Made by a program: the position numbers and the translations under genes. The notes below the pieces were generated by a model. That model searched no databases. It was not told where the DNA came from and saw only the letters and a program-made list of their open reading frames with translations. A stretch of 64,000 bases of DNA, taken from the NCBI GenBank assembly GCA_963836235.1, contig CAWIIP010000002.1, positions 704,001 to 768,000 on the forward strand, read 5' to 3'. This DNA is from an uncultured Pseudomonadota bacterium. GTDB lineage: Bacteria; Oederibacteriota; Muellerivitia; Muellerivitales; Muellerivitaceae. Below are positions 2,273 to 64,000 of this stretch, piece after piece. Position 1 is the first letter of the stretch; each line of letters starts with the position of its first letter.

Positions 2273-3565
2273 CTATAATATTCTATCAAGTTTTTTGATA
2301 GAAGAATCCAGGGCAAGCCTTAATAACCCTAAATTAATCTTGCTATTAGCCAAAACAATCAGAATATATTTAGCAAACGCAACCAGCAATATATGCCCAG
2401 AATTGGCCGTAATTAAAACCTGATTCAATTTCCCTTGATTAAGTTGCTCAACAGATTTATGGGTACTGTTAAAAATAATAGCGGCTTGTTTTCCTAACTC
2501 AGTATTATCGTTGCTATCTCCGAGAGAAACAATGTTAATTCCATTACCTTCCGTTATAAAGCATCGCATTATTCCATCCATAGACTCAAGCTCAGCTAAT
2601 ATCACTTTTAGGCCACTCGTTTGTTCCGAAGACAAATAAACATCTGCCTTTGTTTCGTTGCCTCTTATTTTAGCATTCAGAACTGATTCATTTTTTTTAA
2701 ACCCGAGCTGATTCTTTTTCCCCTCTAGTACAGCATCATCTCTTTCCCCATGCCGCATTACCTGTAAAATGTCATCTCTCGTAAATTTAGAATCATCTTC
2801 TTTTTTCCCCTTTCCAGGATTTTTCAAATCAACACGAGTTTCTTCTAGGAGATCACCTTTATGATCCGGAGGTTGAATAAATTCATTCTTCTTTAATTTT
2901 ACCGTAGCAGTATTAACTGCAGAATCCTTTTGTTGGCGATCAACAACTTCCGTTAATTTTTGACGCAATAATAGATTTTGAGGATCGTTGGCTAAAAGTT
3001 CCTGAAATACTTCGATGGCCTTATCAAAATGACCCTGTTTCAAATAAAGTTCAGCAATGGTTAATGAGGCCGTACTTTCTTTTGACGGATTCCGTTTTTC
3101 AGCAGCCAACAACTCTTTTTTAGGTTCTCTACTGGGTTTTTGCTCTTCCGCAGCTTTTTCAATAGCTTGTTTTAGGGCCTCTTGCGTCTCTTCATCGTCT
3201 GGATTCAAAGTCAGTATCTTTTGATACTCTTCTATTGCAGATTGACAGTCGCCTTGTCCAACAAAAATTGACCCGAGAAGTGAATGAGCCATTAAGTTTT
3301 CCGGATCCGTTTCCAAAACCTTTTTGAATTCACTCGCCGCCTGTTCGATTTTTTTCTGTTCTTGATAGATTCGACCTAGAACAACTCTAGCACTGGTATA
3401 GTTTGGATGTTTTTCTAAGCCTTTCTTGCAAATCTTAACGGCCTCTTCCAATCCACCTTGCTTTCGATAAGCATCTGCAAGGGGAGCAAAAACAAGCGAG
3501 TCAGGATTTTCTTCCAACTTTTTTTTCAACTCAGTTATTTCAGACGTAATGGGATCCTTCGTCAT
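2273..3565 (-). CDS. TPR-repeat protein with C-terminal roadblock/LC7 domain
   Basis: TPRs (FAPLADAYRKQG, ARVVLGRIY, LTIAELYLKQG), a charged linker, and a C-terminal domain ending INLGLLRLAL. Start placed at MTKDP (3565). Confidence 0.8.
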   Translation of the reverse strand: MTKDPITSEITELKKKLEENPDSLVFAPLADAYRKQGGLEEAVKICKKGLEKHPNYTSARVVLGRIYQEQKKIEQAASEFKKVLETDPENLMAHSLLGSIFVGQGDCQSAIEEYQKILTLNPDDEETQEALKQAIEKAAEEQKPSREPKKELLAAEKRNPSKESTASLTIAELYLKQGHFDKAIEVFQELLANDPQNLLLRQKLTEVVDRQQKDSAVNTATVKLKKNEFIQPPDHKGDLLEETRVDLKNPGKGKKEDDSKFTRDDILQVMRHGERDDAVLEGKKNQLGFKKNESVLNAKIRGNETKADVYLSSEQTSGLKVILAELESMDGIMRCFITEGNGINIVSLGDSNDNTELGKQAAIIFNSTHKSVEQLNQGKLNQVLITANSGHILLVAFAKYILIVLANSKINLGLLRLALDSSIKKLDRIL

Positions 3566-3569
3566 AAGC

Positions 3570-4676
3570 TTATGATAACTCACTTGCCTCAATTTGAAGT
3601 TGAGTTAAAACAGAAAGAATTATAGATTTTGGTATATTTTTTTGAATGGTAACAAGACCTATTTTTCTTGTCAATATAAATTGGACTTGTCCATTGCGCG
3701 CTTTCTTATCTAAAAACATCTTAAGATAAACTTTTTGCGGATCAAAGTAAGGGAGTTTATGAAGTAATTCAGCTTTTTTAAATAGCTCGATTTGCCTTTT
3801 CAAAACATTTCGCGAGCAAAAACCAAGCCGTAAAGAAAGCAAAGCCGCAAACCACATCCCATAAGTTATTGCTTCTCCATGGGTTAAAATTTGGTAATCG
3901 TAATAAGACTCAAGTGCATGTCCTAAGGTATGTCCATAATTTAACCATGCACGTTTACCTTGCTCTCCTTCGTCACGTGAAACAATATTAGCTTTGATTT
4001 CACAAGATTTCAAAATTAAATAATTCAATATTTTTTGATCTTTATTCAAAATTTTTTCGATTTTGTTTTCTATAAACCGGAACATATTTTCATCTTGAAT
4101 AACACTATATTTAATAACTTCGGCAAGACCCGTCTTAAATTGACGTTTGTCCAAAGTTGTAAGTACTGTTGGATCAATTAGCACAAGTCGAGGCTGATAA
4201 AATGTTCCTATTAAATTTTTTATGCCTTCAAAATCAATTGCTGTTTTCCCCCCTATACCAGCATCAACTTGGGCCAAAAAGGTTGTAGGACATTGTATAA
4301 AATCAATGCCTCTCATATAAATAGAGGCCGCCAAACCACCCAGATCACCAATCACACCTCCGCCCAATGCAAGCAAACAAGAATCTCTTTGAAAACCATT
4401 ATGTGCCAAAGTTTTTAAAATATAAAATAGCGAATTCTCATTTTTATACTGTTCTCCATCTGAAATACAAATTGGCACTGCTTGCAACCCAACCTTTTTA
4501 AAGCTTTCAATAAATATTTTCCCTTTGCTTTTAATCACAAAAGGATTTGATAATATTGCAATTTTTTTTGATCGAACAATTTTTTTAACTGCCAGTCCAC
4601 ATTTATTCAAAATATTATTTTGAATAACGACCTCGTAACTTCTACTGCCTAAGTTTACCTTAATTATCTTGCGCAA
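3570..4676 (-). CDS. aroB: 3-dehydroquinate synthase
   Basis: LGGGVIGDLGG, PTTFLAQVDAGIGGKT, LNYGHTLGHALE, HGEA. Start uncertain: TTG at 4676 chosen, ORF extends to 4772. Confidence 0.95.
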   Translation of the reverse strand: MRKIIKVNLGSRSYEVVIQNNILNKCGLAVKKIVRSKKIAILSNPFVIKSKGKIFIESFKKVGLQAVPICISDGEQYKNENSLFYILKTLAHNGFQRDSCLLALGGGVIGDLGGLAASIYMRGIDFIQCPTTFLAQVDAGIGGKTAIDFEGIKNLIGTFYQPRLVLIDPTVLTTLDKRQFKTGLAEVIKYSVIQDENMFRFIENKIEKILNKDQKILNYLILKSCEIKANIVSRDEGEQGKRAWLNYGHTLGHALESYYDYQILTHGEAITYGMWFAALLSLRLGFCSRNVLKRQIELFKKAELLHKLPYFDPQKVYLKMFLDKKARNGQVQFILTRKIGLVTIQKNIPKSIILSVLTQLQIEASELS

Positions 4677-5824: not shown

Positions 5825-6988
5825 TTAATACGTTTTAATGTGTTTCAAATACATGTTATACCGTTCCCTGATTTCTTTCATGAAATCGCCACCTATTTTT
5901 TCCAAAAAAGCTTCCAAAATCACCCAAGCGCAAAGCGCCTCTCCAATTACTGCGGCTGCCGGCAGAGCACAAACATCCGAACGTTCATATGCAGCCTTAA
6001 TTTCTTTTTTTGTTTCAATGTTAACAGAGCGAAGCGGTTTTCGAAGGGTCGATATTGGTTTTTTTGCCACCCGCACAATAATAGGTTCCCCATTACTCAT
6101 CCCTCCCTCAATTCCTCCGGCCTTATTTGATAAATGAAAAAAACCTTTAGTCTTGTTATAGGCAATTTCATCATGTACTTCTGATCCGAATAAACCCGAA
6201 TTTCGAAAACCTTCTCCAATTTCAACACCTTTGATTGCTTGTAAACTCAATAAGGAATGCGCTAATCGCCCATCTAGTTTCCTGTCCCACTGAACGTGGC
6301 TTCCGAGTCCGATGGGTACTCCAGTTACAATTACTTCAAAGATTCCCCCTAAAGTATCGCCTTTTAGCTTCGCTGCTTCAATAAGCGCCATTGCCTTTTT
6401 TTCGGCTTTTTTTTCTAACATTCGAACTGGGGATTTATCTGCCTCTTTATTGAGATTGTCATAGTTTAAAATTTTATGGTTTGATGAGGAAGAGCCTAAT
6501 TGCCTAACATGACTTTGAACAAAGATATTGAAGGAAGTCAAAAATATTTTAGCAACTGCACCCCCAGCAACCCTAGCCGTTGTTTCCCTTGCACTTGCTC
6601 TTTCCAATATGTTCCTCAAATCCCTTTGATTATATTTAATTCCACCTGGTAAGTCTGCGTGACCAGGTCGCGGCCGTTGAAGAGGATTTCCTTTTTTCTC
6701 GTTCGAAAAATCAGGTGACATAACTCTTTCCCAATTTTCATAATCCTTATTTTTTATGAAAAGGGCGATGGGTGATCCTAAAGTTTCTCCATTTCGAATT
6801 CCGGAGACAATTTCCACCTGATCATTTTCAATAAGCATACGGCCTCCCCGACCATATCCTCGCTGTCGTCGGGCCAATTCCGTATTAATTTCAGCGGCTG
6901 ATATGATCAATCCAGCGGGAAAACCTTCCAAAATAACCACTATCCCTTTTCCGTGCGACTCACCCGCCGTCAGAAAACGTATACTCAC
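5825..6988 (-). CDS. aroC: Chorismate synthase
   Basis: TAGESHG, RPGHAD, ERASARET, GGIEGGMSNG, ERSD. GTG start at 6988 with a GGAG RBS. Confidence 0.97.
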   Translation of the reverse strand: MSIRFLTAGESHGKGIVVILEGFPAGLIISAAEINTELARRQRGYGRGGRMLIENDQVEIVSGIRNGETLGSPIALFIKNKDYENWERVMSPDFSNEKKGNPLQRPRPGHADLPGGIKYNQRDLRNILERASARETTARVAGGAVAKIFLTSFNIFVQSHVRQLGSSSSNHKILNYDNLNKEADKSPVRMLEKKAEKKAMALIEAAKLKGDTLGGIFEVIVTGVPIGLGSHVQWDRKLDGRLAHSLLSLQAIKGVEIGEGFRNSGLFGSEVHDEIAYNKTKGFFHLSNKAGGIEGGMSNGEPIIVRVAKKPISTLRKPLRSVNIETKKEIKAAYERSDVCALPAAAVIGEALCAWVILEAFLEKIGGDFMKEIRERYNMYLKHIKTY

Positions 6989-7071
6989 TGTTGAATACTC
7001 CAATTAGGTTGGATTGTTTATTGATACATTTTTAAAAAAGGCCTTTAAAAAGTACCTTTTAAATTTAATTT

Positions 7072-9450
7072 TTAATCTTCTAACAAGGTGGGCGTAACAA
7101 AAATAACAAGTTCTTCATGTTGATCACTCTTGGAATGCACTTGAAAAAGGCTTCCAATGATAGGCAGACTTGATAAAAGGGGCAAACCATCCACTTCCTC
7201 TTGCACAACCTCTCTGACAAGACCACCAATTACGATTGTTTCTCCATTCTTCGTCGTAATGGTTGTTGTCGCCGTTTGAACATTTGTAGGAGGTGGTGCA
7301 CCCGGCGCAGCGGGTCCGGATGGAGTTGTAATAGAAGCTGAAATCACCGTAGTTATTTTTCCATCATCAGTTATGCGTGGAAGCACTTTAAGATCAATCG
7401 GAAGCGCCACTTGAAGATATGTGGTTGTTGTTTGAAAACCCACATTAGGAACAGCGATCTCAGTTGTCGATGGAACAATAACATTTTCAGTTTCATTTAT
7501 TTCCGCTGCAATTCCACTCTGAGTAGAAACTCGGGGTCGTGAAATTACCTTTCCTTTTTTATGAGTGATTAAAGCTTGAATACTAGCCGAAATGTCCATG
7601 CCACTTCTGACCGTCCCAAAACTTAATACTCCAGGAGCCCCATTTGTTCCTGTCGGCGGAAGATCAAGACCGGCAGAAAATGTAGGGTCTCCAGTCCCCC
7701 TATTAGCAGACCAAATAACACCCATAGCCGAATCATTCTCATCATCAATTTCAACGATATTGGATTCAATCAAAACCTGTTCTGGCTTAATATCTAACTC
7801 ATTAATTAATTCTAAGAGAACACCCATATTAGTTGCGGTTTCCCAAATAATTAATTGCTGCTTATCTGCTTTCACTTGAATCTTTCCAACAGGCGTCAGG
7901 TAAGGTGTTAATATCGGGCTCATTTGTGCTGCCGTGGCATAGTTCAACTTTACCACCCTGATAATCCGATCACCACTTGAGCCAACATCCAGCTTTAAAT
8001 CCTTTATTGCCATTTTATATTCTTCGATATCCGAAGTCGTCCCAGTCAAGACAATAACATTTCGAGTGGTATCAAAAAAAGTGCTTGAAGCGTTGGATGC
8101 CGGAAGAATAGACCTCACTAAAGTATCAAATTGGTTTGGTAACATACCATTTGAGGGAGTTATGATTTCAGTGATGTGCGGCAAAATTAATTTTGTGCTT
8201 TTGAGGGTGGCTTGTGGACCAACTCGAAGAGTATTCCCTTGTAAATCATAATCATAATTACCCGAAACCAATAAATCAGAAAGTGCAGTTTTGAAGGGAA
8301 TGTCTTTAAATTTTTCTGAAACAGTACCTGTTAAAGGCCCTCCAACAAAATTCACCTCAAAACCAGCTTCCCCCGCAAGAGTTTTAATCACCGCATTAAG
8401 GTCAGCACTTTCAAGGTCAAGTGAAATAAGTTGGTTGAGATTTCCCTTTTTTGTTTCCTGTTTTTGAATAACTGGCGGAGCCGACAACGTCAGTACCACT
8501 TGATTCAAATCACGATCTATTTGGTTAACGGTCCCAGGAAGAAGAGTCAGCAAAACCTCTGAAATTGGAGAAAAAACAGGGCCAATTTGTCGACACTCCA
8601 GGGAAAGTAACCCACTTTTTTGTATTCCAATTTCATCCATTCTTAACTTTTTCACCTTGTCTTCGATTTCCAATTTAGTGTTTTGAAACCGAATCACTAA
8701 TTTTTCAGGTTGAGATAATTTTCTAATTGTGTATTTTGAGGGGCCATCAGAGGTCAAAACCACTTTAATACAATTTCCAAGCGGCTTTAACGAAACATCA
8801 ACAAGCCTGGAAAATAGCCCCTTTTCATCGGTGGCATTAGTCACCGGTAAAACCGTTCCAGAAGCATTTTGATTACTTTGGCTTGATTCCGGATTTAACA
8901 ATAAGGTAAAACCAAGGTCTGATTTTTCTAAAACAAAATTTTTGATGCCTTTGCCATCAAAAACAAGCCATGCAGTTCCTTCATGGATTGACGAGCGAAC
9001 GTCCGTCACAAAAAAAATAGCCCCCCTTATTTTGGGCGGAATATTTAACTTTGTTTTTAAAAACTTTAACAAGATTTTCCCGCTCGATATTTTTTGAGCA
9101 AGCGGTTTTGGAAGGTCATCTCCTTCAATTGAAACCTTAGCCCCCTGCCCCTCTTTCGAAAAGTTCACTCCATTAATTACGCTCGAACCAGCTTTTCTTG
9201 TTTTCTCAGAAGTTTTCGTTTCAACTATCCCTGACCCATTAATCGAGCTGATCGCCGAAGTTATTCCATTTTCACTTGTTGCGTTTTTAGAGTTCGATAA
9301 ATTCTTTTCGGAAGAAATACCGTTTGTGGTTGTTGCCGCACCGGCGCTCAAATCAATATCGATGTCGTCAGCCTGTGAAATACAATTGCTTAATAACAAT
9401 ATTCCGAATCCCAAAAAGCATCTGTTCAAGTGCGAACAAAATCGTCGCAT
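7072..9450 (-). CDS. pilQ: Type IV pilus secretin PilQ
   Basis: Signal peptide, AMIN-like N-domains, ISLDLESADL, QVLIESNIVE, GETIVIGGL, GLPLLSSLPIIGSLF, ELVIFVTP; last gene of pilMNOP. Confidence 0.9.
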   Translation of the reverse strand: MRRFCSHLNRCFLGFGILLLSNCISQADDIDIDLSAGAATTTNGISSEKNLSNSKNATSENGITSAISSINGSGIVETKTSEKTRKAGSSVINGVNFSKEGQGAKVSIEGDDLPKPLAQKISSGKILLKFLKTKLNIPPKIRGAIFFVTDVRSSIHEGTAWLVFDGKGIKNFVLEKSDLGFTLLLNPESSQSNQNASGTVLPVTNATDEKGLFSRLVDVSLKPLGNCIKVVLTSDGPSKYTIRKLSQPEKLVIRFQNTKLEIEDKVKKLRMDEIGIQKSGLLSLECRQIGPVFSPISEVLLTLLPGTVNQIDRDLNQVVLTLSAPPVIQKQETKKGNLNQLISLDLESADLNAVIKTLAGEAGFEVNFVGGPLTGTVSEKFKDIPFKTALSDLLVSGNYDYDLQGNTLRVGPQATLKSTKLILPHITEIITPSNGMLPNQFDTLVRSILPASNASSTFFDTTRNVIVLTGTTSDIEEYKMAIKDLKLDVGSSGDRIIRVVKLNYATAAQMSPILTPYLTPVGKIQVKADKQQLIIWETATNMGVLLELINELDIKPEQVLIESNIVEIDDENDSAMGVIWSANRGTGDPTFSAGLDLPPTGTNGAPGVLSFGTVRSGMDISASIQALITHKKGKVISRPRVSTQSGIAAEINETENVIVPSTTEIAVPNVGFQTTTTYLQVALPIDLKVLPRITDDGKITTVISASITTPSGPAAPGAPPPTNVQTATTTITTKNGETIVIGGLVREVVQEEVDGLPLLSSLPIIGSLFQVHSKSDQHEELVIFVTPTLLED

Positions 9451-14333: not shown

Positions 14334-15398
14334 TTAAATCACGCCTTTTACCATCCGTTGCAATTCTTTCGGATCCAATGTCCGGGAGAAAATTTCGTTA
14401 TAACTTACAAGTTGTTTTTGATAAAGCTCAAACAAAGATTGATTCATGGTCTGCATTCCATACTCAGTTCCCGTTTGCATGGACGAATAAATTTGGTGAA
14501 TTTTTTCCTCGCGAATGAGATTTCGAATTGCCGCAGTCGGGATGAGCACTTCCAATGCAAGGCACCGGCCGGATCCATAGGCCTTCGGTAATAGTTGCTG
14601 GGAGAGCACAGCTTGAAGGACAAAGGATATCTGTGCCCGAATCTGTTGTTGCTGGCCCGCGGGAAAAACATCAATGATACGGTTTATGGTTTGGATCGCA
14701 TCGACCGTATGCAATGTGGCGAAAACCAAGTGACCCGTTTCAGCGATAGTCAAAGCGGCATTCACGGTTTCCAAATCACGCATTTCACCAATGAGGATGA
14801 CATCCGGATCCTGACGCAAAGCATATTTTAGAGCAGATGTAAAAGTATGTGTATCCGTCCCAACCTCTCTTTGATTAACAATGCAGGATTTGTGAGTGTG
14901 CACATACTCAATGGGATCTTCTATAGTGATAATATGGTGTTGTTGATTTGTATTAATCCAATCCAGCATAGCCGCTAGGGTCGTTGATTTGCCTGACCCC
15001 GTTGGCCCCGTAACCAAAACTAATCCTTTCGGTAATTTCACGATGTCTAGCGCAATAGGAGGAAGTTTCAAGTCTTCGAATGTGCGAATGGATGTTGGAA
15101 TATTCCGTAAGGCCGCCGCTACCGCACCCCGTTGTTGATAAACATTCATACGAACACGGCCTACACCTTCAACCCCAAAAGAAACGTCAAGCTCGTTATC
15201 TTTCTCAAACTTCTCTTTTTGCTCATCCGTTAAAATGCTGTAAATAAGCTGCTGGGTTGTTTCTGGCCTTAGTTTTTCATATTCGGTTGCCGTCATAACG
15301 CCGTCAATCCGAAGCATTGGAGGGGCTCCAGCGGTGATATGAAGATCAGAAGCTCCTCTTTCAAACATAAGCCTTAAAAGCGTATCAATATTGACCAT
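14334..15398 (-). CDS. pilT: Pilus retraction ATPase PilT
   Basis: ASDLH, Walker A GPTGSGKSTT, EDPIE, LRQDPD, AETGHL, and the PilT-specific AIRNLIRE. Confidence 0.97.
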   Translation of the reverse strand: MVNIDTLLRLMFERGASDLHITAGAPPMLRIDGVMTATEYEKLRPETTQQLIYSILTDEQKEKFEKDNELDVSFGVEGVGRVRMNVYQQRGAVAAALRNIPTSIRTFEDLKLPPIALDIVKLPKGLVLVTGPTGSGKSTTLAAMLDWINTNQQHHIITIEDPIEYVHTHKSCIVNQREVGTDTHTFTSALKYALRQDPDVILIGEMRDLETVNAALTIAETGHLVFATLHTVDAIQTINRIIDVFPAGQQQQIRAQISFVLQAVLSQQLLPKAYGSGRCLALEVLIPTAAIRNLIREEKIHQIYSSMQTGTEYGMQTMNQSLFELYQKQLVSYNEIFSRTLDPKELQRMVKGVI

Positions 15399-15431
15399 GG
15401 GATATTTGTGTCTCCTTTACGAGATAATGCT

Positions 15432-17204
15432 TTATTCTTCGTTCGAATCAGCGTGAGCTACACGCAAGAGTTCTTCAACCGACGTCATTCCCTTTAAAAC
15501 TTTCTTCACGCCACATTCCCTAAGTGTCTGCATTCCCCCGGCTCTGGCAATTTTTTTAAGATCAGAAGCGGTTTTTCTTTGCAGAACGCCTTTTTTGAAA
15601 TCTTCGCTTAAAATCATGACTTCATGAATCGCCATACGCCCTTTGTAGCCCGTGTTAGAACAAGTGGCGCATCCCACTCCCCGATGCAAAGTCACCCTTT
15701 CACCCGCATTGGGATTAATTCCCATCTCTTCCAGAACTTCGTCGGGCGCCTCATAGGCTTCCTTACAATCTTTACAAATACGACGGAGTAAACGCTGAGC
15801 AACCACGCAGTGTACAGTGGAGGTAATAAGAAATGGCTCAACTCCCATGTTTCCCATGCGAGTAACTGCCCCTGGAGCGTCATTCGTATGCAGGGTTGAG
15901 AACACTAAGTGCCCCGTTAAAGCAGCGTTAATTGCAATTTCAGCCGTTTCCTTATCGCGAATTTCTCCAACCATGATCACATCCGGATCTTGGCGTAAGA
16001 AGGAGCGCAATCCTGCGGCAAAAGTTAACCCAATTCCCGCTTTGGCATTAACTTGGTTAATGCCTGGAAGGTTATATTCCACTGGATCCTCAATGGTAGA
16101 AATATTTGTATCAGGATTATTGATGTAGTGGAGTGCCGAATAGAGAGTTGTCGACTTACCGGAACCCGTTGGCCCGGTCACTAGAACTAACCCATAGGGC
16201 TCTACGATGGCCTTTTCAAATTTGGGCAAAATATCGTCTTCGAAACCAAGCTTCGGCAGATCCAAAGATAAGTTGGACGAATCCAAAATACGCATAACTA
16301 TCTTCTCACCAAATTGAACGGGGCAAATAGAAACACGAAGGTCGATTTCTTTTCCCAAAACCTTAATTTTAATACGTCCATCCTGTGGCAATCGCCGCTC
16401 CGCAATATCCAACGAGGACATGATCTTTAAACGGGAAGAAATAGCGGCGGACAATGACTTTGGAGGTGATTGAACCTCATGGAGGACGCCATCAATCCGA
16501 TAACGGCACCGAAGGCTTTTTTCATAAGGTTCAATATGGATATCACTGGCTCCCGCCCTTACGGCTTCCGTCAAAACAAGGTTGACCAATCGGACGACAG
16601 GTGCGTCTTCTCCAGCCGCCTCCAACTTAGAAATATCAATTTCCTCATTCTTTTCTTCCATAACTTCTAAGTTCTCGCCACCGCCCATGGAATTGATAAT
16701 TTCCTGCATATCGCCGCCGACTTCACCTCCACCACCGCCGCCACTTGAACCAGAACCACCCGCGGCAGCCCCATAATATTTGGCGTGCATGGCCTTAATT
16801 TCGGTTTCACTGGCAATCGCGGGTTCCACCTCAAAGCCTGTCATCATTTTGATGTCATCAATGGCAAAAACATTGAGCGGATCCGCCATGGCAACGGTAA
16901 GTTTCTTATCTTTTTTAACAATCGGGATCAAACAATGATTGAGGGCGATGGATTCGGGGACCGAGAAAACAACATCATTGGGAATATCCCCGATTTCGAT
17001 GAGGCTTACATGGGGAATACCAAGTTGGGTTCCCACAAAAGCCATAATCACGTCTTGGGTGACGTAACCCTGGCTAATAAGGATTTTTTCGAGACGCCCT
17101 CCCTTGATTTTCTGTTCGTGGAGCGCCTCTTGAAGCTGTTCTTCCGAGATAATCCCTTCATCCACCAACATTTCGCCCAGGCGTTTCTTCATGGATTCAG
17201 GCAT
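15432..17204 (-). CDS. pilB: Pilus extension ATPase PilB
   Basis: N-terminal MshEN-type motif, ASDIHIEP, GPTGSGKSTT, LRQDPD, and a tetracysteine Zn motif (CKDC, CATC). Confidence 0.96.
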   Translation of the reverse strand: MPESMKKRLGEMLVDEGIISEEQLQEALHEQKIKGGRLEKILISQGYVTQDVIMAFVGTQLGIPHVSLIEIGDIPNDVVFSVPESIALNHCLIPIVKKDKKLTVAMADPLNVFAIDDIKMMTGFEVEPAIASETEIKAMHAKYYGAAAGGSGSSGGGGGGEVGGDMQEIINSMGGGENLEVMEEKNEEIDISKLEAAGEDAPVVRLVNLVLTEAVRAGASDIHIEPYEKSLRCRYRIDGVLHEVQSPPKSLSAAISSRLKIMSSLDIAERRLPQDGRIKIKVLGKEIDLRVSICPVQFGEKIVMRILDSSNLSLDLPKLGFEDDILPKFEKAIVEPYGLVLVTGPTGSGKSTTLYSALHYINNPDTNISTIEDPVEYNLPGINQVNAKAGIGLTFAAGLRSFLRQDPDVIMVGEIRDKETAEIAINAALTGHLVFSTLHTNDAPGAVTRMGNMGVEPFLITSTVHCVVAQRLLRRICKDCKEAYEAPDEVLEEMGINPNAGERVTLHRGVGCATCSNTGYKGRMAIHEVMILSEDFKKGVLQRKTASDLKKIARAGGMQTLRECGVKKVLKGMTSVEELLRVAHADSNEE

Positions 17205-60866: not shown

Positions 60867-62345
60867 ATGAAATTACGAGTCTTGTTAATCAATCCCCCGC
60901 GGGTCAAAAACCTTCCGGTCGTGCGTGAGGAACGCTACGAACACCGGGACGTGGGTTCGGTTTATCCCCCTCTATCCATCCTCCAGGGCGCCGCTTCCCT
61001 TCGTCATGCCGGTTTCGACGTCAAGGTCATGGACGCCAACGGCTTCGACCTGAAACTGGAGCATGTCGGCCGCCTCTTGAGCGATTTTCAGCCCCACATG
61101 GTCGTGGCCCGCATGGCCTTCGACTGCCAGGAAGAGGACTTGAAGGTTTTGCAACTGGCCAAGGCCACCAACCCCAACTGCGTCACGGTTATCCGCAACA
61201 AGATCATCTCCGAGGTTCCCTGGTTCCTCGAGGATGTGGTCAAGAACCATCCCGAAATCGACCTTTACCTGATGGGTGAGCTGGACGCCATCCTGCCGTC
61301 CCTGGCCAAGCGGCTGGAATCCGAATTAAGCCCCATGGGCAACATGCCACCCAAATCCAACAGCTGGTTTTCCGGCATCAACGGCCTGACCTACTACACC
61401 GAAAAAGAGGGAATGGTGAAGACCCCTCCCCCGATGCTGATGGACGTGAGCATGGCCCCCTTCCCAGCCTACGACATGTTGCCCTCGATCGCCCCTTACC
61501 ACACGGGGGTCTTCCAAGACCATTTCGTGATGATCCAGACTTCTAGGGGCTGTCCCTTCGGCTGTACCTTCTGCGCCTACGCTTTGGAAAAATACCGCCC
61601 CCGCCCCCACAAGCAAGTGGCGGAGGAATTGATTTGGCTGAAGGAAAACTTCGGCGCCAAGAACGTCCTCTTCTTTGATGACCTCTTAGCCTTGAACTCC
61701 GACCGCACCGCCGACCTGGCTGAGGCCTTAATTAAGGACGAAGTGAATATGGAATGGGTCTGCTGTACCCGGGCCAACCTGACCGACGTTCCCTCGCTGA
61801 AGATGATGCGCAAATCCGGCTGCCGTGAGCTGGCCGTGGGTATCGAAAGCGGAGACGAGGGTATCCTGGAACGCATCAACAAGGGCGTGAGCAAGGAAGA
61901 CATCGCCAAATGCGCCTCCGCCTGCAAGGAAGCGGACATTCTTTTCTACGGCATGACCATCTGCGGCCTGCCCGGCGAAACCGAGGAAACCTGGCGCCGC
62001 ACCATCAACTTCATCAAAGAAATCGACCCCTTCTATACCCAGTTCTGCTTTAGCACGCCCTTCCCCAACACCGAGATGTACCCCTTTTACGAGAAGAACG
62101 GCTACCTGAACCATAAGGATTGGTCGCAATATTCGCCCCTGGCCCCTACGCCGGTCATCCGCACCGAAGCCCTCACCACCCAGGATTTAATCCGCCTGCG
62201 CCGAGAAGCCTACCGTGAAGTGCTCTTCCGCCCCAAGTATCTGCTCTCCAAAATCCGTCTCACCGACCCCATGTGGAACCTCAAGGGCGGCTGGGAACTC
62301 GCCAAGCGCGGCGCCGCCGTGCTGACCGGGCGGGATGTTCGGTAA
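60867..62345 (+). CDS. B12-binding domain radical SAM protein
   Basis: LLINPP..YPPL, TSRGCPFGCTFC, FFDD, GIESG, TPFPNT. Confidence 0.92.
   Translation: MKLRVLLINPPRVKNLPVVREERYEHRDVGSVYPPLSILQGAASLRHAGFDVKVMDANGFDLKLEHVGRLLSDFQPHMVVARMAFDCQEEDLKVLQLAKATNPNCVTVIRNKIISEVPWFLEDVVKNHPEIDLYLMGELDAILPSLAKRLESELSPMGNMPPKSNSWFSGINGLTYYTEKEGMVKTPPPMLMDVSMAPFPAYDMLPSIAPYHTGVFQDHFVMIQTSRGCPFGCTFCAYALEKYRPRPHKQVAEELIWLKENFGAKNVLFFDDLLALNSDRTADLAEALIKDEVNMEWVCCTRANLTDVPSLKMMRKSGCRELAVGIESGDEGILERINKGVSKEDIAKCASACKEADILFYGMTICGLPGETEETWRRTINFIKEIDPFYTQFCFSTPFPNTEMYPFYEKNGYLNHKDWSQYSPLAPTPVIRTEALTTQDLIRLRREAYREVLFRPKYLLSKIRLTDPMWNLKGGWELAKRGAAVLTGRDVR
62283..62345 (+). repeat. Direct repeat copy 1 (3' end of radical SAM gene)
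   Basis: 63 bp, 56/63 identical to 63245-63307. Confidence 0.95.
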
Positions 62346-62428
62346 CTCAACCGTTGCTTTTGTAACTGGTCTATATTCCAGATGATTCCTTTCACAACCC
62401 TTACTCCGCACCGTGTTAAAATCCTCCC

Positions 62429-62977
62429 ATGAATGAACAGATAGAACTGATCAAACTCGTGGCCAGCCGCCTCGAAGAAGCCGGAATTTCTTACATGCTT
62501 ACCGGCTCAGCCGCTCTGGATTTCTACGCCACACCCCGCATGACGAGGGACATCGACTTAGTCGTGGAATTGAACCCCTCCGACACTCAAAAACTGCGTC
62601 AACTATTCTCGTCCGACTTTTATCTGGATGAACAAGCGGTAACGACGGCCGTTCAACAGCGGACTATGTTCAACGCCATTCACCAGGGATGGATGATCAA
62701 AGTTGATTTCATCGTTCGAAAAGATTTGGAATACCGGAAAGTCGAGTTTAATCGGCGCCAAGCCATGAAATTGCAGGACGGCTCAACTGTGTTTGTCGCG
62801 TCCCCCGAGGACCTGATTCTTTCCAAGCTGGACTGGTCGAAGGAAACTCACTCGGAAGTCCAGAAAAAGGACATCCGAAGCCTCCTGTCCTTAACTCCCG
62901 GCCTGGACTATACTTACCTCAAGAAATGGGCTTTAGCGCTGGGCGTTTCCAAGCAGCTTGAGGAGTTGAAACCGTGA
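62429..62977 (+). CDS. Pol-beta-superfamily nucleotidyltransferase (AbiEii/DUF6036-like)
   Basis: TGSAALDFYATPRMTRDIDLVV, KVDF, SPEDLILSKL. TGtTAAAAT lies 6 nt before the ATG, suggesting leaderless expression. Confidence 0.82.
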   Translation: MNEQIELIKLVASRLEEAGISYMLTGSAALDFYATPRMTRDIDLVVELNPSDTQKLRQLFSSDFYLDEQAVTTAVQQRTMFNAIHQGWMIKVDFIVRKDLEYRKVEFNRRQAMKLQDGSTVFVASPEDLILSKLDWSKETHSEVQKKDIRSLLSLTPGLDYTYLKKWALALGVSKQLEELKP

Positions 62978-63234
62978 CCGACACATCCCCCGAAATCGAA
63001 ACCGTTTGGCTGGAAATGTGGAAAAAAGTCCCACCTGCGGAGCGTTTTCGGATGGGATGCGAGATGTTTTCAACCGCCAAGGAGCTTGCCCTGGTCGGCA
63101 TTCGCAAGGAACTCGGCCGGGACGACCCGAAGGAGATGCGCCATAGGCTTTTCATGAGGTTTTATGGAGCCGATTTCACCCCGGAAGAATCGGCGCGGAT
63201 ACTGCAACACCTGGATAAAACCAACCCAGTTTAA
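62974..63234 (+). CDS. Small helical partner protein (putative antitoxin-like)
   Basis: 86 aa, MTDTSPEIE...PAERFRMGCEMF...LFMRFYG; GTGA overlap with the NTase stop. Confidence 0.75.
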   Translation: MTDTSPEIETVWLEMWKKVPPAERFRMGCEMFSTAKELALVGIRKELGRDDPKEMRHRLFMRFYGADFTPEESARILQHLDKTNPV

Positions 63235-63244
63235 TTTCGGACGA

Positions 63245-63307
63245 AAGGGTGGCTGGGAACTCGCAAAGCGCGGCGCTGCCGTCTTGACGGGGCGGGATGT
63301 TCGATAA
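63245..63307 (+). repeat. Direct repeat copy 2 (orphan radical SAM 3' end)
   Basis: Encodes the same KGGWELAKRGAAVLTGRDVR* with 7 synonymous changes. Confidence 0.95.
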
Positions 63308-63398: not shown

Positions 63399-64000
63399 AT
63401 GCAACCCCCAAGCCCAAAACCGTATTCCATTAACGATTTCATCGAATGGTATGCCCGCGGAGAGATTGTTTTATCCCCCAAATATCAAAGAAGGGCTGTT
63501 TGGTCAGAAAAAGCTCAGTCTTATCTCATGGATACAATAGTTAGAGGCTTTCCCATTCCAAAAATCTTCATTCGACATGACGTAAATATGACCACCAAAA
63601 AGTCATACCGAGAAATCGTCGATGGACAACAACGCATCAGAACCATTTTGTCATTTATAAAAGATGGTTTCAAAATTATGAAAGTTCACAATAAGGATTT
63701 CGGCGGTTTATATTTCAGTGAATTGCCGGGACCAATTCAAAAAAAGATTTTGATATACGACATATCCGTGGATGTTCTAAACGAAGCGACCGACGCAGAA
63801 ATATTAGAGATGTTCGCTCGCATCAACACCTACACGGTAGTTCTCAAAAAACAGGAACTGCTAAACGCAAATTATTTTGGCCATTTCAAAACCGCAGCTT
63901 ATTCATTGGGATTTGAATTTTCCAAATTTTATCTTGCCAACAAAATCCTTAAAGAAAAAGACATCACGAGAATGGCTGAGGCTGAATTAACATCGGAGTT
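63399..64000 (+). CDS. DUF262 (GmrS/ParB-like) domain protein, runs off the window end
   Basis: Manual translation MQPPSPKPYSINDF...PKYQRRAVW...GFPIPKIF...IVDGQQR...MFARINT shows the QR, DGQQR and FxxxN motifs. Preceded by TGtTATAAT (63368-63376) and an AAGGAG RBS; AT-rich. Confidence 0.9.
   Translation, partial: MQPPSPKPYSINDFIEWYARGEIVLSPKYQRRAVWSEKAQSYLMDTIVRGFPIPKIFIRHDVNMTTKKSYREIVDGQQRIRTILSFIKDGFKIMKVHNKDFGGLYFSELPGPIQKKILIYDISVDVLNEATDAEILEMFARINTYTVVLKKQELLNANYFGHFKTAAYSLGFEFSKFYLANKILKEKDITRMAEAELTSE

What the first reader, a model, noticed from the sequence alone, without database searches (positions are those of the whole stretch)
62283..63307. Gene-end duplication with only synonymous changes brackets a cassette: candidate integrase-free cassette-capture site
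Seen: the last 21 codons of the rSAM gene (62283-62345) recur at 63245-63307. All 7 differences are silent (GGC/GGT, GCC/GCA, GCC/GCT, GTG/GTC, CTG/TTG, ACC/ACG, CGG/CGA), so both encode KGGWELAKRGAAVLTGRDVR*. A two-gene module lies between the copies and a DUF262 gene follows the second. No integrase or transposase lies within the ~0.9-kb unit. Inference: both copies evolved as functional gene ends, so the module arrived carrying a diverged allele's 3' end and displaced the resident one. Repeating this would stack defence cassettes behind a conserved gene, each preceded by a relic gene tail; a T4P competence machinery could supply the DNA.
Basis: partly seen in the sequence, partly recalled or inferred. 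Interest (0 to 1): 0.8.

Follow-up and report, generated by a model that had tools for sequence, protein, structure and literature searches.

The report
Toxin-antitoxin cassette flanked by duplicated gene end
A small toxin-antitoxin gene pair sits just behind a conserved enzyme gene and is followed by an orphan second copy of that gene's last 20 codons that differs only by silent changes, which marks a recombinase-free way of acquiring such cassettes that recurs in this genome and in other phyla.

Summary
The last 20 codons plus stop of a B12-type radical-SAM gene (62283-62345) recur at 63245-63307. All 7 differences are silent, and the genome holds only these two copies. Between them lies a 0.9-kb two-gene cassette: a MenT1-like nucleotidyltransferase toxin and an 86-aa partner predicted to cover its active site.

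No integrase lies in the unit or in the 12 kb downstream. Seven of the genome's eight tyrosine recombinases sit beside a tRNA gene, five of them with a partial tRNA repeat of their own.

The anatomy is not unique:
- About 14 other gene-end duplicates in this genome bracket small inserts, mostly toxin-antitoxin pairs. Pooled pN/pS is 0.09.
- The same cassette is bracketed by duplicated ends of other genes (PheS, CarB, MoxR) in other phyla.
- Stacked arrays exist (three tails, two cassettes).

The closest known thing is "insertion with long target duplication", described for restriction-modification genes, whose mechanism is unsolved. The silent-only divergence shows that the two repeats are alleles from different lineages, not an in-place duplication.

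However, stacking is not seen at this site, the mechanism (one-sided homologous recombination or circle insertion) is unresolved, and the class is not new.

The parts
60867..62345 (+). Target gene: B12-binding-type radical SAM enzyme (492 aa), conserved across the family within a polysaccharide/glycosyltransferase cluster
   Evidence: Pfam Radical_SAM 81.6 bits; B12-binding 17.7 bits, below cut-off. Orthologues of 60-90% identity are present in 17-18 family genomes.
62283..62345 (+). Tail copy 1: the working last 20 codons plus TAA of the rSAM gene
   Evidence: The tail peptide is conserved family-wide.
62346..62428 (+). 83-nt leader of the cassette. No terminator-like site lies between the gene and the cassette, and no + strand sigma-70-like site was found.
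   Evidence: consensus scan only.
62429..62977 (+). MenT1-like nucleotidyltransferase (182 aa), the putative toxin
   Evidence: Pfam AbiEii 22.3 and DUF6036 21.1 bits, both just under cut-off. AF2 model pLDDT 93. Best PDB match is MenT1 toxin 8an5/8an4, TM 0.75/0.71, E 1.6e-9. The G26 S27 ... D41 x D43 motif is invariant in 30 homologues.
62974..63234 (+). 86-aa partner, the putative antitoxin. It overlaps the NTase stop by 4 nt.
   Evidence: No Pfam match. It follows the NTase in 77 of 80 surveyed loci. Complex prediction scored 0.90 against a best control of 0.00, with the interface over NTase residues 28-40 and 82-91.
63235..63244 (+). 10-nt right junction between the cassette and the relic tail
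63245..63307 (+). Tail copy 2: an orphan (relic) copy of the same 20 codons plus TAA, with 7 silent differences. It is in a different reading frame from the 86-aa gene.
63399..64000 (+). DUF262/GmrSD_N gene (341 aa, runs past the window end), followed by a 205-aa ORF. It is part of the 7.4-kb variable stretch before the conserved glycosyltransferase.
   Evidence: Pfam GmrSD_N 81-87 bits. Interval comparison.

Best explanation
[quoted passage not shown] It is followed by an orphan copy of that gene's last 20 codons.

The two copies are not products of one duplication in place. They are two alleles of the same gene end that diverged while each closed a working gene in a different lineage.

They were most likely brought together when DNA from a related lineage (the 3' part of the gene plus the cassette behind it) recombined into the chromosome. 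The conserved gene served as the only homology arm. The second joint was illegitimate and fell at codon 473 inside the resident gene, so the resident's leftover end survives as the relic.

The cassette's addictive nature then protects the insert from loss by recombination between the repeats.

Shown: the anatomy, the silent-only divergence, the absence of a recombinase, the recurrence, and the toxin-antitoxin-like nature of the cargo.

Inferred: the one-sided homologous route, which copy is resident, and stabilisation by addiction.
For: 1. All 7 of 7 differences are silent. P = 0.004 if the duplicate arose in place and the relic drifted.

2. The longest identical run between the two tails is 14 nt, by my own count. 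That is short for a RecA crossover inside the tails.

3. Neither the unit nor the 12 kb downstream holds an integrase or transposase. Seven of the 8 tyrosine recombinases of the genome lie beside a tRNA gene, five with a partial tRNA repeat 8.7-37 kb away. The nearest is 163 kb from this locus.

4. The same anatomy occurs at about 14 other genes in this genome:
- Pooled over 18 pairs, Sd is 87, Nd is 27 and pN/pS is 0.09. With the 2 decayed pairs added, pN/pS is 0.13.
- The relic keeps a stop at the same place in 19 of 20 pairs, and in 6 of those it is a different stop codon.

5. The inserts are mostly addiction modules: PemK/MazF twice, PIN twice, HicAB, ParE and MqsA-like.

6. The same NTase cassette is bracketed by duplicated ends of other genes:
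- the neighbouring 221-aa gene in G005;
- PheS, CarB, MoxR, a GHMP kinase and HipA in other phyla.

7. In stacked arrays the distal tail is the decayed one. The third tail in G005 carries two in-frame stops.

8. The site is a family-wide variable spot, with an interval of 0.1-11.4 kb in 14 genomes.

9. The cargo looks like a toxin-antitoxin pair. The fold matches MenT1. The complex score is 0.90 against a best control of 0.00; that mark was reached by 58 of 80 solved complexes and 2 of 110 mismatched pairs. Because the MenAT1 complex is solved, the pass may be from memory.

10. Furuta et al. 2010 (passages of PMC2853133) describe long, variable target duplications around addictive restriction-modification genes. 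They report no other mobile element, repeats that often span a stop or start codon, and occurrence mostly in naturally competent species.
Against: 1. No conspecific empty site or donor was available, so no recombination tract was seen. A sliding-window comparison of the gene with relatives was inconclusive.

2. The test of which copy is resident gave mixed answers:
- at the rSAM, copy 1 is nearer to relatives (6-14 differences against 11-18 for copy 2);
- at C2:1938487 the relic is nearer (10-12 sites against 5-6);
- at C2:271455 it is 8 against 5.

3. The cassette has tight, repeatable ends. The relic starts 0-20 nt after the 86-aa gene's stop in 11 of 16 bracketed loci. Random illegitimate joints do not predict this.

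4. Cassette genes point the same way as the target gene in all 8 Pfam-supported toxin-antitoxin cassettes of G000. This too is not predicted by random joints.

5. In a crude control the excess of gene-end duplicates over mid-gene duplicates is only about two-fold: 15 downstream for tails, against 8 and 6.

6. Natural transformation is not shown for this phylum.
Confidence: 0.55

Rival explanations
1. Address-carrying cassette. The cassette moves as a circle that carries a copy of the target gene's end, as an integron cassette carries attC or a CIME carries att sites. It is inserted behind the cognate gene by a single crossover made by a recombinase encoded elsewhere, or by host recombination. 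Both tails are then hybrids of donor and recipient alleles, which also gives silent-only differences along the whole repeat.
For: - The cassette ends are tight and repeatable: the relic starts 0-20 nt after the last stop in 11 of 16 loci.
- All 8 of 8 Pfam-supported toxin-antitoxin cassettes point the same way as the target gene.
- Arrays resemble integron arrays.
- Related cassettes keep the same target: G000 and contig L139 at the rSAM end, and L121 and L123 at the PheS end.
- In L075 the same cassette lies between three ~125-nt repeats that look like integron attC sites (the motif is recalled).
Against: - There are at least 13 different target ends in one genome with no shared motif at the junctions, by inspection.
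- No integrase lies in or near any cassette.
- Seven of the genome's 8 integrases lie beside a tRNA gene.
- The longest identical run between the two rSAM tails is 14 nt, which is poor for RecA.
- No joint that skips the cassette was listed in 4 public runs. Contigs cannot show rare forms.
Confidence: 0.22
2. True target duplication made in place at the first insertion (staggered break, repair synthesis). The silent differences arose later, when the gene's 3' part including copy 1 was overwritten by a foreign allele through ordinary homologous recombination, with one crossover in the gene and one in a shared cassette.
For: - Several bracketing repeats elsewhere are perfect or nearly so: L094 74 of 74, L128 66 of 67, L121 64 of 65.
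- The literature treats such repeats as target duplications (PMC2853133 passages).
Against: - It needs two events, plus a donor that already has the same cassette at the same site.
- An in-place duplicate with neutral drift alone is rejected (P = 0.004; pooled pN/pS 0.09).
- Copy 2 shows no non-silent change at all.
Confidence: 0.1
3. Copy 2 is kept because it is used: either translated as the end of the 47-aa ORF 63164-63307, or acting as an RNA or regulatory element.
For: An ATG-started 47-aa frame contains it. Silent-only change is what coding selection gives.
Against: - The frame overlaps the 86-aa gene out of frame and has no conserved upstream part.
- Relics at other loci decay. The third tail of G005 has in-frame stops, and C4:494681 has 7 non-silent changes.
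- No Rfam match at E <= 0.1.
Confidence: 0.03
4. Assembly artefact: two strains' alleles of the gene end were stitched into one contig.
For: The genome is a metagenome-assembled one, and the run that holds most of the stretch also holds a variant strain.
Against: - The copies are 962 nt apart with unique sequence between them.
- Contigs of two other runs from two studies bridge copy 1 into the cassette with 0 differences, and a third bridges the cassette into copy 2.
- The same anatomy appears in independent genomes.
Confidence: 0.02

Closest known systems
Insertion with long target duplication (Nobusato et al. 2000, Gene 259:99, seen only as a reference entry and otherwise recalled; Furuta, Abe & Kobayashi 2010, NAR 38:2428, PMC2853133, passages read)
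   Same: Long, variable direct repeats (over 30 bp) of the target flank an inserted addictive gene set. No other mobile element is present. The repeats often span a stop or start codon, so the target gene stays intact. The mechanism is unknown.
   Different: - The cargo here is a toxin-antitoxin pair, not a restriction-modification system. My searches found no paper describing this for toxin-antitoxin genes. The papers holding both terms that I opened cite it only in their reference lists.
- The repeats differ only by silent changes, which marks them as alleles from two lineages.
- Cassettes stack into arrays with relic tails between them.
- One cassette family shows the pattern in several phyla.
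Homology-facilitated illegitimate recombination in natural transformation (de Vries & Wackernagel 2002; Prudhomme et al. 2002; recalled, not read here)
   Same: Foreign DNA is integrated with one homologous anchor and one illegitimate joint. No element-encoded enzyme is needed.
   Different: The described events usually delete or replace recipient DNA. A joint upstream of the donor's own gene end, leaving a duplicated tail, is my inference. Transformation is not shown in this phylum.
Site-specific elements that integrate into the 3' end of a gene and supply a replacement end, and their integrase-less derivatives that accrete in tandem (e14 in icd; ICESt1 and CIMEs at fda; recalled)
   Same: The gene end is duplicated, with mostly silent differences. 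Tandem arrays are separated by att-like repeats. Units without an integrase exist.
   Different: No cognate integrase exists for any of at least 13 targets. The units are 0.85-1.1 kb with only a toxin-antitoxin operon. Repeat lengths range from 38 to 172 nt.
Integron gene cassettes
   Same: Small, co-oriented, mostly promoter-poor cassettes, each followed by a repeat. The newest lies next to the fixed site. Toxin-antitoxin cassettes are common. The same NTase cassette lies between attC-like repeats in L075.
   Different: In the window the repeat is the coding end of a conserved gene, not an attC hairpin. No intI gene and no attC-type end motifs were seen by eye.
MenAT1 toxin-antitoxin system of Mycobacterium tuberculosis (Xu et al. 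2023, PMC10435456, abstract read)
   Same: A ~190-aa nucleotidyltransferase toxin fold (TM 0.75) paired with a short protein inhibitor predicted to sit over the catalytic face.
   Different: Sequence identity is 18-21%. Pfam AbiEii and DUF6036 scores fall just below cut-off. The partner has no detectable sequence family. Activity is untested.

Membership tests
Insertion with long target duplication | Direct repeats longer than 30 bp flank the insert | tested here: met
   63-66 nt at 88% identity.
Insertion with long target duplication | The repeated sequence is single-copy at the empty site of related genomes | tested here: met
   18 relatives' loci each have one tail. G022 and G016 have about 0.1 kb between the rSAM and the glycosyltransferase. 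No conspecific genome was available.
Insertion with long target duplication | No transposase, integrase or other mobile element in the insert | tested here: met
   Pfam on both ORFs and on 10 downstream ORFs.
Insertion with long target duplication | The repeats arise by duplication of the recipient's own target | tested here: not met
   All 7 of 7 differences are silent, P = 0.004. The copies behave as two alleles.
Site-specific integrative element or CIME | A cognate integrase, in the element or elsewhere, using the same att sequence | tested here: not met
   There are 8 PF00589 genes. Seven lie beside a tRNA gene, and five of those have a partial tRNA repeat 8.7-37 kb away. None is at a cassette target.
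Integron cassette | An attC site (imperfect palindrome with conserved end motifs) and an intI gene nearby | tested here: inconclusive
   No end motifs were seen by eye in the tail. No attC model was available. There is no integrase within 12 kb. L075 shows attC-like repeats around the same cassette.
Diversity-generating retroelement (template/variable repeat at a gene end) | Differences confined to adenines of the template, a changed protein, and a reverse transcriptase nearby | tested here: not met
   Only 2 of 7 differences involve an A in copy 2, and the peptide is unchanged. No reverse transcriptase among the ORFs scanned.
Transposon target-site duplication | A short duplication of fixed length, plus a transposase and terminal inverted repeats | tested here: not met
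   Repeats range from 38 to 172 nt in G000. There is no transposase and no terminal inverted repeats.
MenT/AbiEii (DUF1814-type) nucleotidyltransferase toxin-antitoxin | Pol-beta-type NTase core with G-S ... D-x-D | tested here: met
   G26, S27, D41 and D43 are invariant in 30 homologues. The fold match to MenT1 has TM 0.75.
MenT/AbiEii (DUF1814-type) nucleotidyltransferase toxin-antitoxin | Pfam family score over the curated cut-off | tested here: not met
   AbiEii 22.3 against a cut-off of 22.5; DUF6036 21.1 against 23.6.
MenT/AbiEii (DUF1814-type) nucleotidyltransferase toxin-antitoxin | An adjacent cognate inhibitor that binds the toxin | tested here: inconclusive
   A model only: score 0.90 against a best control of 0.00. 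A like complex is solved, so the pass may come from memory.
MenT/AbiEii (DUF1814-type) nucleotidyltransferase toxin-antitoxin | Toxicity, and its neutralisation | not testable with these tools
   Needs expression in a laboratory strain.

The most novel reading that the evidence does not exclude
Addiction cassettes form an integron-like but integrase-free system. Each cassette carries the 3' end of a conserved host gene as a portable address. It leaves as a circle by recombination between the two tails and re-enters behind the same gene in other lineages. Arrays of cassettes separated by relic tails build up in this way, and toxin-antitoxin killing enforces retention. The silent-only divergence of the tails would then be a direct record of inter-lineage hops, and would explain the unsolved 'long target duplication' insertions.
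Probability: 0.2. Interest if true: 0.85.

Novelty: new variant of a known kind. Interest (0 to 1): 0.62.

Why it matters
How chromosomal toxin-antitoxin and other defence cassettes move without any recombinase of their own is poorly understood. The mechanism of 'insertion with long target duplication' has been open since 2000.

The silent-only divergence seen here, replicated at many loci, shows that the two 'duplicates' can be alleles from different lineages. That points to recombination anchored in a conserved gene rather than to a staggered cut. It turns the question into one that population genomics or a transformation experiment can settle.

The findings also show three further things:
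- Conserved operons (rSAM cluster, pheS-pheT) serve as landing pads.
- Arrays of addiction modules accumulate there.
- One MenT1-like cassette family shows the pattern in several phyla.

Tried and rejected
- Diversity-generating retroelement: rejected. The changes are not adenine-specific, the peptide is unchanged and there is no reverse transcriptase.
- Transposon target-site duplication: rejected. Repeats are long and variable, and there is no transposase.
- A nearby integrase with attL/attR: rejected for this locus.
- More tail copies beyond the window: none in the whole genome.
- Mosaic test of the rSAM gene in 150-nt windows against 16 relatives: no clear breakpoint.
- Direction test (which tail is resident): mixed results.
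The phylum search found none closer than 72%. The metagenome scan gave only 4 short contigs.
- Read laying: no listed joint skips the cassette. Logan contigs cannot show rare forms, so this says nothing about excision. For X1 record 4 the table does not tell me with certainty which end carries its 47 unaligned letters.
- Genome-wide control: gene-end segments gave 15 downstream and 8 upstream isolated duplicates. Mid-gene segments gave 8 and 7, and three-quarter-point segments gave 6 and 8, among 1896 frames of at least 300 codons. The excess is only about two-fold.
- In the pooled silent/non-silent count I left out 2 of 20 pairs that were visibly decayed (third tail of G005; C4:494681). With them pN/pS is 0.13.
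- In 5 of 14 G000 cases the homology runs 20-30 nt past the stop, so 'ends at the stop' is not general. One of these (C1:254864) looks like a tandem gene duplication.
- Rfam: no match.
- Promoter and terminator consensus scan: nothing on the + strand.
- Supplements of papers were not seen. Supplementary Figure 7 and the tables of PMC2853133 may hold cases that bear on gene-end repeats.
Full report
**The observation**

The sequence at 62283-62345 and at 63245-63307 is a 63-nt direct repeat, 962 nt apart, with 7 differences.
- Six differences are at third codon positions and one is CTG/TTG. Both copies give the same 20 residues and TAA.
- Homology begins abruptly at the Lys codon and stops 3 nt after the stop codon.
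- The match is far beyond chance: score 42 against at most 12 in 30 shuffles, and E = 2.8e-18 in self-blastn.
- The window is G000:C2:704001-768000 of a 3.97-Mb, 5-contig genome.
- tblastn and blastn of the tail against the whole genome find only these two copies.

Contigs of other public runs cover both junctions.
- X2 record 9 (L002 2142-2438) and X3 record 19 (2282-2512) match without a difference.
- X1 record 4 (2976-3307) covers the cassette-to-copy-2 junction in a variant with 8 differences.
- An assembly chimera is therefore very unlikely.

**What lies there**

- The gene that ends in copy 1 is a B12-binding-type radical SAM enzyme.
- Between the copies are a 182-aa nucleotidyltransferase and an overlapping 86-aa ORF.
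- The NTase scores just under the Pfam cut-offs for AbiEii and DUF6036.
- Its AlphaFold model (pLDDT 93) is most like the MenT1 toxin of the MenAT1 system: TM 0.75/0.71, E 1.6e-9, 18-21% identity.
- By the abstract of PMC10435456, MenT1 is a tRNA-modifying toxin blocked by a short protein antitoxin.
- The 86-aa gene follows the NTase in 77 of 80 surveyed loci.
- A complex prediction scored 0.90 against a best control of 0.00. That mark was reached by 58 of 80 solved complexes and 2 of 110 mismatched pairs. The three runs agree in at least 97% of their contacts, and the partner's pLDDT is at least 87. The partner sits over NTase residues 28-40 and 82-91, the catalytic face. Because a like complex is solved, this shows likeness, not binding.
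- I read the cassette as a toxin-antitoxin pair; its activity is untested.

Downstream of copy 2 come the following:
- a DUF262/GmrSD_N gene plus a 205-aa ORF;
- four reverse-strand genes (pirin, DoxX, DUF1697, OmdA);
- VapBC;
- the conserved glycosyltransferase.

No integrase or transposase lies in this stretch.

**Relatives**

- Orthologues of the rSAM gene (60-90% identity) occur in 17-18 genomes of the family.
- The tail peptide is conserved in nearly all of them.
- A second tail copy is present in 1 of 19 loci, the window's own.
- In the 14 genomes where both genes lie in the stretch I held, the distance from the rSAM stop to the glycosyltransferase runs from about 0.1 kb (G022, G016) to 11.4 kb (G002). 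It is 7.4 kb in G000 and 5.3 kb in the same-genus G001. The site is therefore a family-wide variable spot.
- Copy 2 is nearest to copy 1 (7 differences); the next nearest tails differ at 11 positions. Copy 1 is 6 differences from the tails of G008 and G009.

**The same cassette elsewhere**

- The NTase family is large: 2517 hits.
- Within the family it was found in 4 of 31 genomes, and within the phylum in 5 of 99.
- In G005 it sits behind the homologue of the 221-aa gene that precedes the rSAM gene in G000. There it is again bracketed by that gene's last 17 codons plus stop, with 4 differences, all silent.
- A third, decayed copy with two in-frame stops follows a Fic/MerR gene. The order is tail, cassette, tail, cassette, tail.

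Survey of 80 loci from many phyla:
- 13 of the 78 loci with enough flank have bracketing direct repeats scoring 18-99. The other loci scored 7-15; L127, at 15, has a repeat that starts right after the stop.
- Three more loci bracket the cassette together with extra genes.
- In L094, L111, L121 and L081 the upstream copy ends within 11 nt of the stop of a same-strand gene. In L128 the repeat spans the stop. These genes are MoxR, CarB, PheS, HipA and a GHMP kinase.
- In L094 the 74 identical bases are followed by TGA in one copy and TAA in the other.
- In L123 two relic PheS tails flank the cassette. It lies in an array of VapBC, the cassette and an XhoI-type restriction-modification pair just upstream of pheT. 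The intact pheS is on another contig.
- In L075 the cassette lies between three ~125-nt repeats that look like integron attC sites (the motif is recalled).
- A metagenome contig with an 89%-identical cassette (L139) carries rSAM codons 450-473 after the 86-aa gene. It then diverges exactly where the G000 repeat begins. I cannot explain this coincidence.

**The same anatomy at other genes of G000**

I scanned the last 60 nt of every open frame of at least 150 codons against the 15 kb downstream.
- About 14 further gene-end duplicates emerged. They are 38-172 nt long and bracket 0.85-3.9 kb.
- They include a three-copy array at C2:275993-277528.
- The inserts are mostly toxin-antitoxin operons: RHH+PemK twice, an unnamed ORF+PIN, HicB-like+HicA, VapB-like+PIN, ParE+CopG, and MqsA-like with an IS66 inserted.
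- Four inserts have no Pfam match. One holds a histidine kinase and one a radical SAM gene.
- None holds an integrase.
- In all 8 Pfam-supported toxin-antitoxin cassettes the genes point the same way as the target gene.

**Silent against non-silent change**

- For the focal pair: 7 silent, 0 non-silent.
- A simulation in which the duplicate arises in place, the relic drifts and the gene copy keeps only silent changes gives all-silent in 0.4% of trials.
- Over 18 pairs: Sd 87, Nd 27, pS 0.27, pN 0.025, pN/pS 0.09. With the two visibly decayed pairs that I had left out, pN/pS is 0.13.
- The relic keeps a stop at the same place in 19 of 20 pairs, and in 6 of those it is a different stop codon.
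- The relics therefore spent most of their divergence from the working copies as working gene ends.
- Caveats: pairs were found by blastn similarity, and open frames rather than gene calls were used. In a crude control, gene ends gave only about twice as many isolated downstream duplicates as mid-gene segments.

**Recombinases and DNA uptake**

- G000 has 8 PF00589 genes. Six are paralogues of about 369 aa.
- Seven lie beside a tRNA gene, and five of those have a partial tRNA repeat 8.7-37 kb away. The eighth lies in a 3.2-kb stretch that is about 69% identical to the region around one of its paralogues.
- None is at a cassette, and the nearest to this locus is 163 kb away.
- ComEC (1), DprA (2) and PilB/PilT-like ATPases are present, two of the last within the window at 14562-16610. 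The same searches ring in 10-13 of 14 control genomes, so they say little.

**What is known**

Furuta, Abe and Kobayashi (2010; passages read), following Nobusato et al. (2000; seen only as a reference entry), describe 'insertion with long target duplication' of restriction-modification genes.
- The target repeats are long and variable.
- No other mobile element is involved.
- The repeats often span a start or stop codon.
- Most cases are in naturally competent species.
- The mechanism is unknown.

The window's locus fits this class except on one point: the repeats are not a duplication of one target. Five searches found no paper describing the pattern for toxin-antitoxin genes. The papers holding both terms that I opened cite it only in their reference lists. 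The library holds open-access papers only.

**Mechanism**

The silent-only divergence rules out a simple in-place duplication. Two routes remain.

(a) One-sided homologous recombination.
- Incoming DNA from a related lineage carries the gene's 3' part and the cassette behind it.
- It pairs in the conserved gene, and its far end joins illegitimately inside the resident gene's last codons.
- The donor supplies the working end, and the resident's leftover becomes the relic.
- This needs no special enzyme.
- It explains why homology usually ends at or just after the stop, why repeat lengths vary, and why tails with only 14-nt identical runs can coexist.

(b) A circle made of the cassette plus one tail, inserted by a single crossover at the gene's end.
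- This better explains the tight cassette ends: the relic starts 0-20 nt after the last stop in 11 of 16 loci.
- It also better explains the uniform orientation and the integron-like arrays.
- It lacks a recombinase, and RecA would have little to work with.

In either case a toxin-antitoxin cargo should be enriched, because losing it by recombination between the repeats would be penalised. That step is inference. I favour (a) at about 0.55 and (b) at about 0.2.

**Verdict**

It generalises well beyond the window.
- Stacking is real elsewhere but is not seen at this site.
- The class is a new variant of a known but mechanistically unsolved kind.

Noticed in passing
L057 (G005:C63:26000-39000), reverse strand; flipped coordinates about 6061-6114, 6999-7052, 8231-8284: There are three copies of the last 17 codons of the homologue of window gene 60060-60725. 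They separate the NTase cassette and a Fic/MerR gene. The distal copy has two in-frame stops.
   Followed up: yes
G000:C2:275993-277528 (L147): Three copies of a 345-codon gene's end (117-127 nt, 6-8 differences, 2 of them changing the residue) separate a PIN cassette and a HicB-like/HicA cassette.
   Followed up: yes
G000: L144, L145, L146, L148-L156: About a dozen further gene-end duplicates bracket 0.85-3.9-kb inserts, mostly toxin-antitoxin operons. One (L148) also holds an IS66 transposase. One (L154) looks like a tandem gene duplication.
   Followed up: partly
G000: C2:509098, C5:272844, C4:245282, C2:1374385, C2:1186149, C4:196578, C2:929772: Six paralogous ~369-aa tyrosine recombinases share 57-70% identity. 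Four of them, and a seventh recombinase at C2:929772, lie next to a tRNA gene with a partial tRNA repeat 8.7-37 kb away, which marks classical islands. The pair at C4:196578 and C4:245282 has no tRNA gene within 4 kb and instead shares a 3.2-kb stretch of about 69% identity.
   Followed up: partly
L139 (metagenome contig, 624-695): After an 89%-identical cassette comes a fragment of the rSAM gene, codons 450-473, with almost only silent differences. It breaks off exactly at the Lys codon where the G000 repeat starts. This is unexplained.
   Followed up: partly
L123 1-6534 (G099:C71): An array of VapBC, a PheS relic tail, the NTase cassette, a second PheS relic tail and an XhoI-type restriction-modification pair lies directly upstream of pheT. 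The intact pheS lies on another contig (G099:C53).
   Followed up: partly
L075 895-1019, 1858-1986, 3572-3701: Three ~125-nt repeats with end motifs like integron attC sites (recalled consensus) flank the NTase cassette and an Xre/RES toxin-antitoxin cassette. In that genome the module is apparently an integron cassette.
   Followed up: no
L044 (G001) and L046 (G016), rSAM orthologues: The same-genus orthologue reads through one TAA. The G016 orthologue is frameshifted about 30 codons before its end. These are either broken genes or draft errors.
   Followed up: no
L071, L098, L138 (about 3542-4280): In three loci the 86-aa partner is fused to a C-terminal extension of about 130-160 aa, giving proteins of 214-245 aa.
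   Followed up: no
L002 9043-9782 (beyond the window end; G000:C2:773043-773782): A VapB/PIN pair ends 4 nt inside the start of the conserved glycosyltransferase. It is a second toxin-antitoxin pair at the other edge of the variable stretch.
   Followed up: no
L002 5739-5865, 7035-7143, 7661-7758 (beyond the window end): Three 100-130-nt imperfect palindromes (72-78% self-complementary) lie between the reverse-strand genes of the variable stretch.
   Followed up: no
window 14562-16610: PilT-like and PilB-like T2SSE ATPases lie here. No link to DNA uptake was tested.
   Followed up: no
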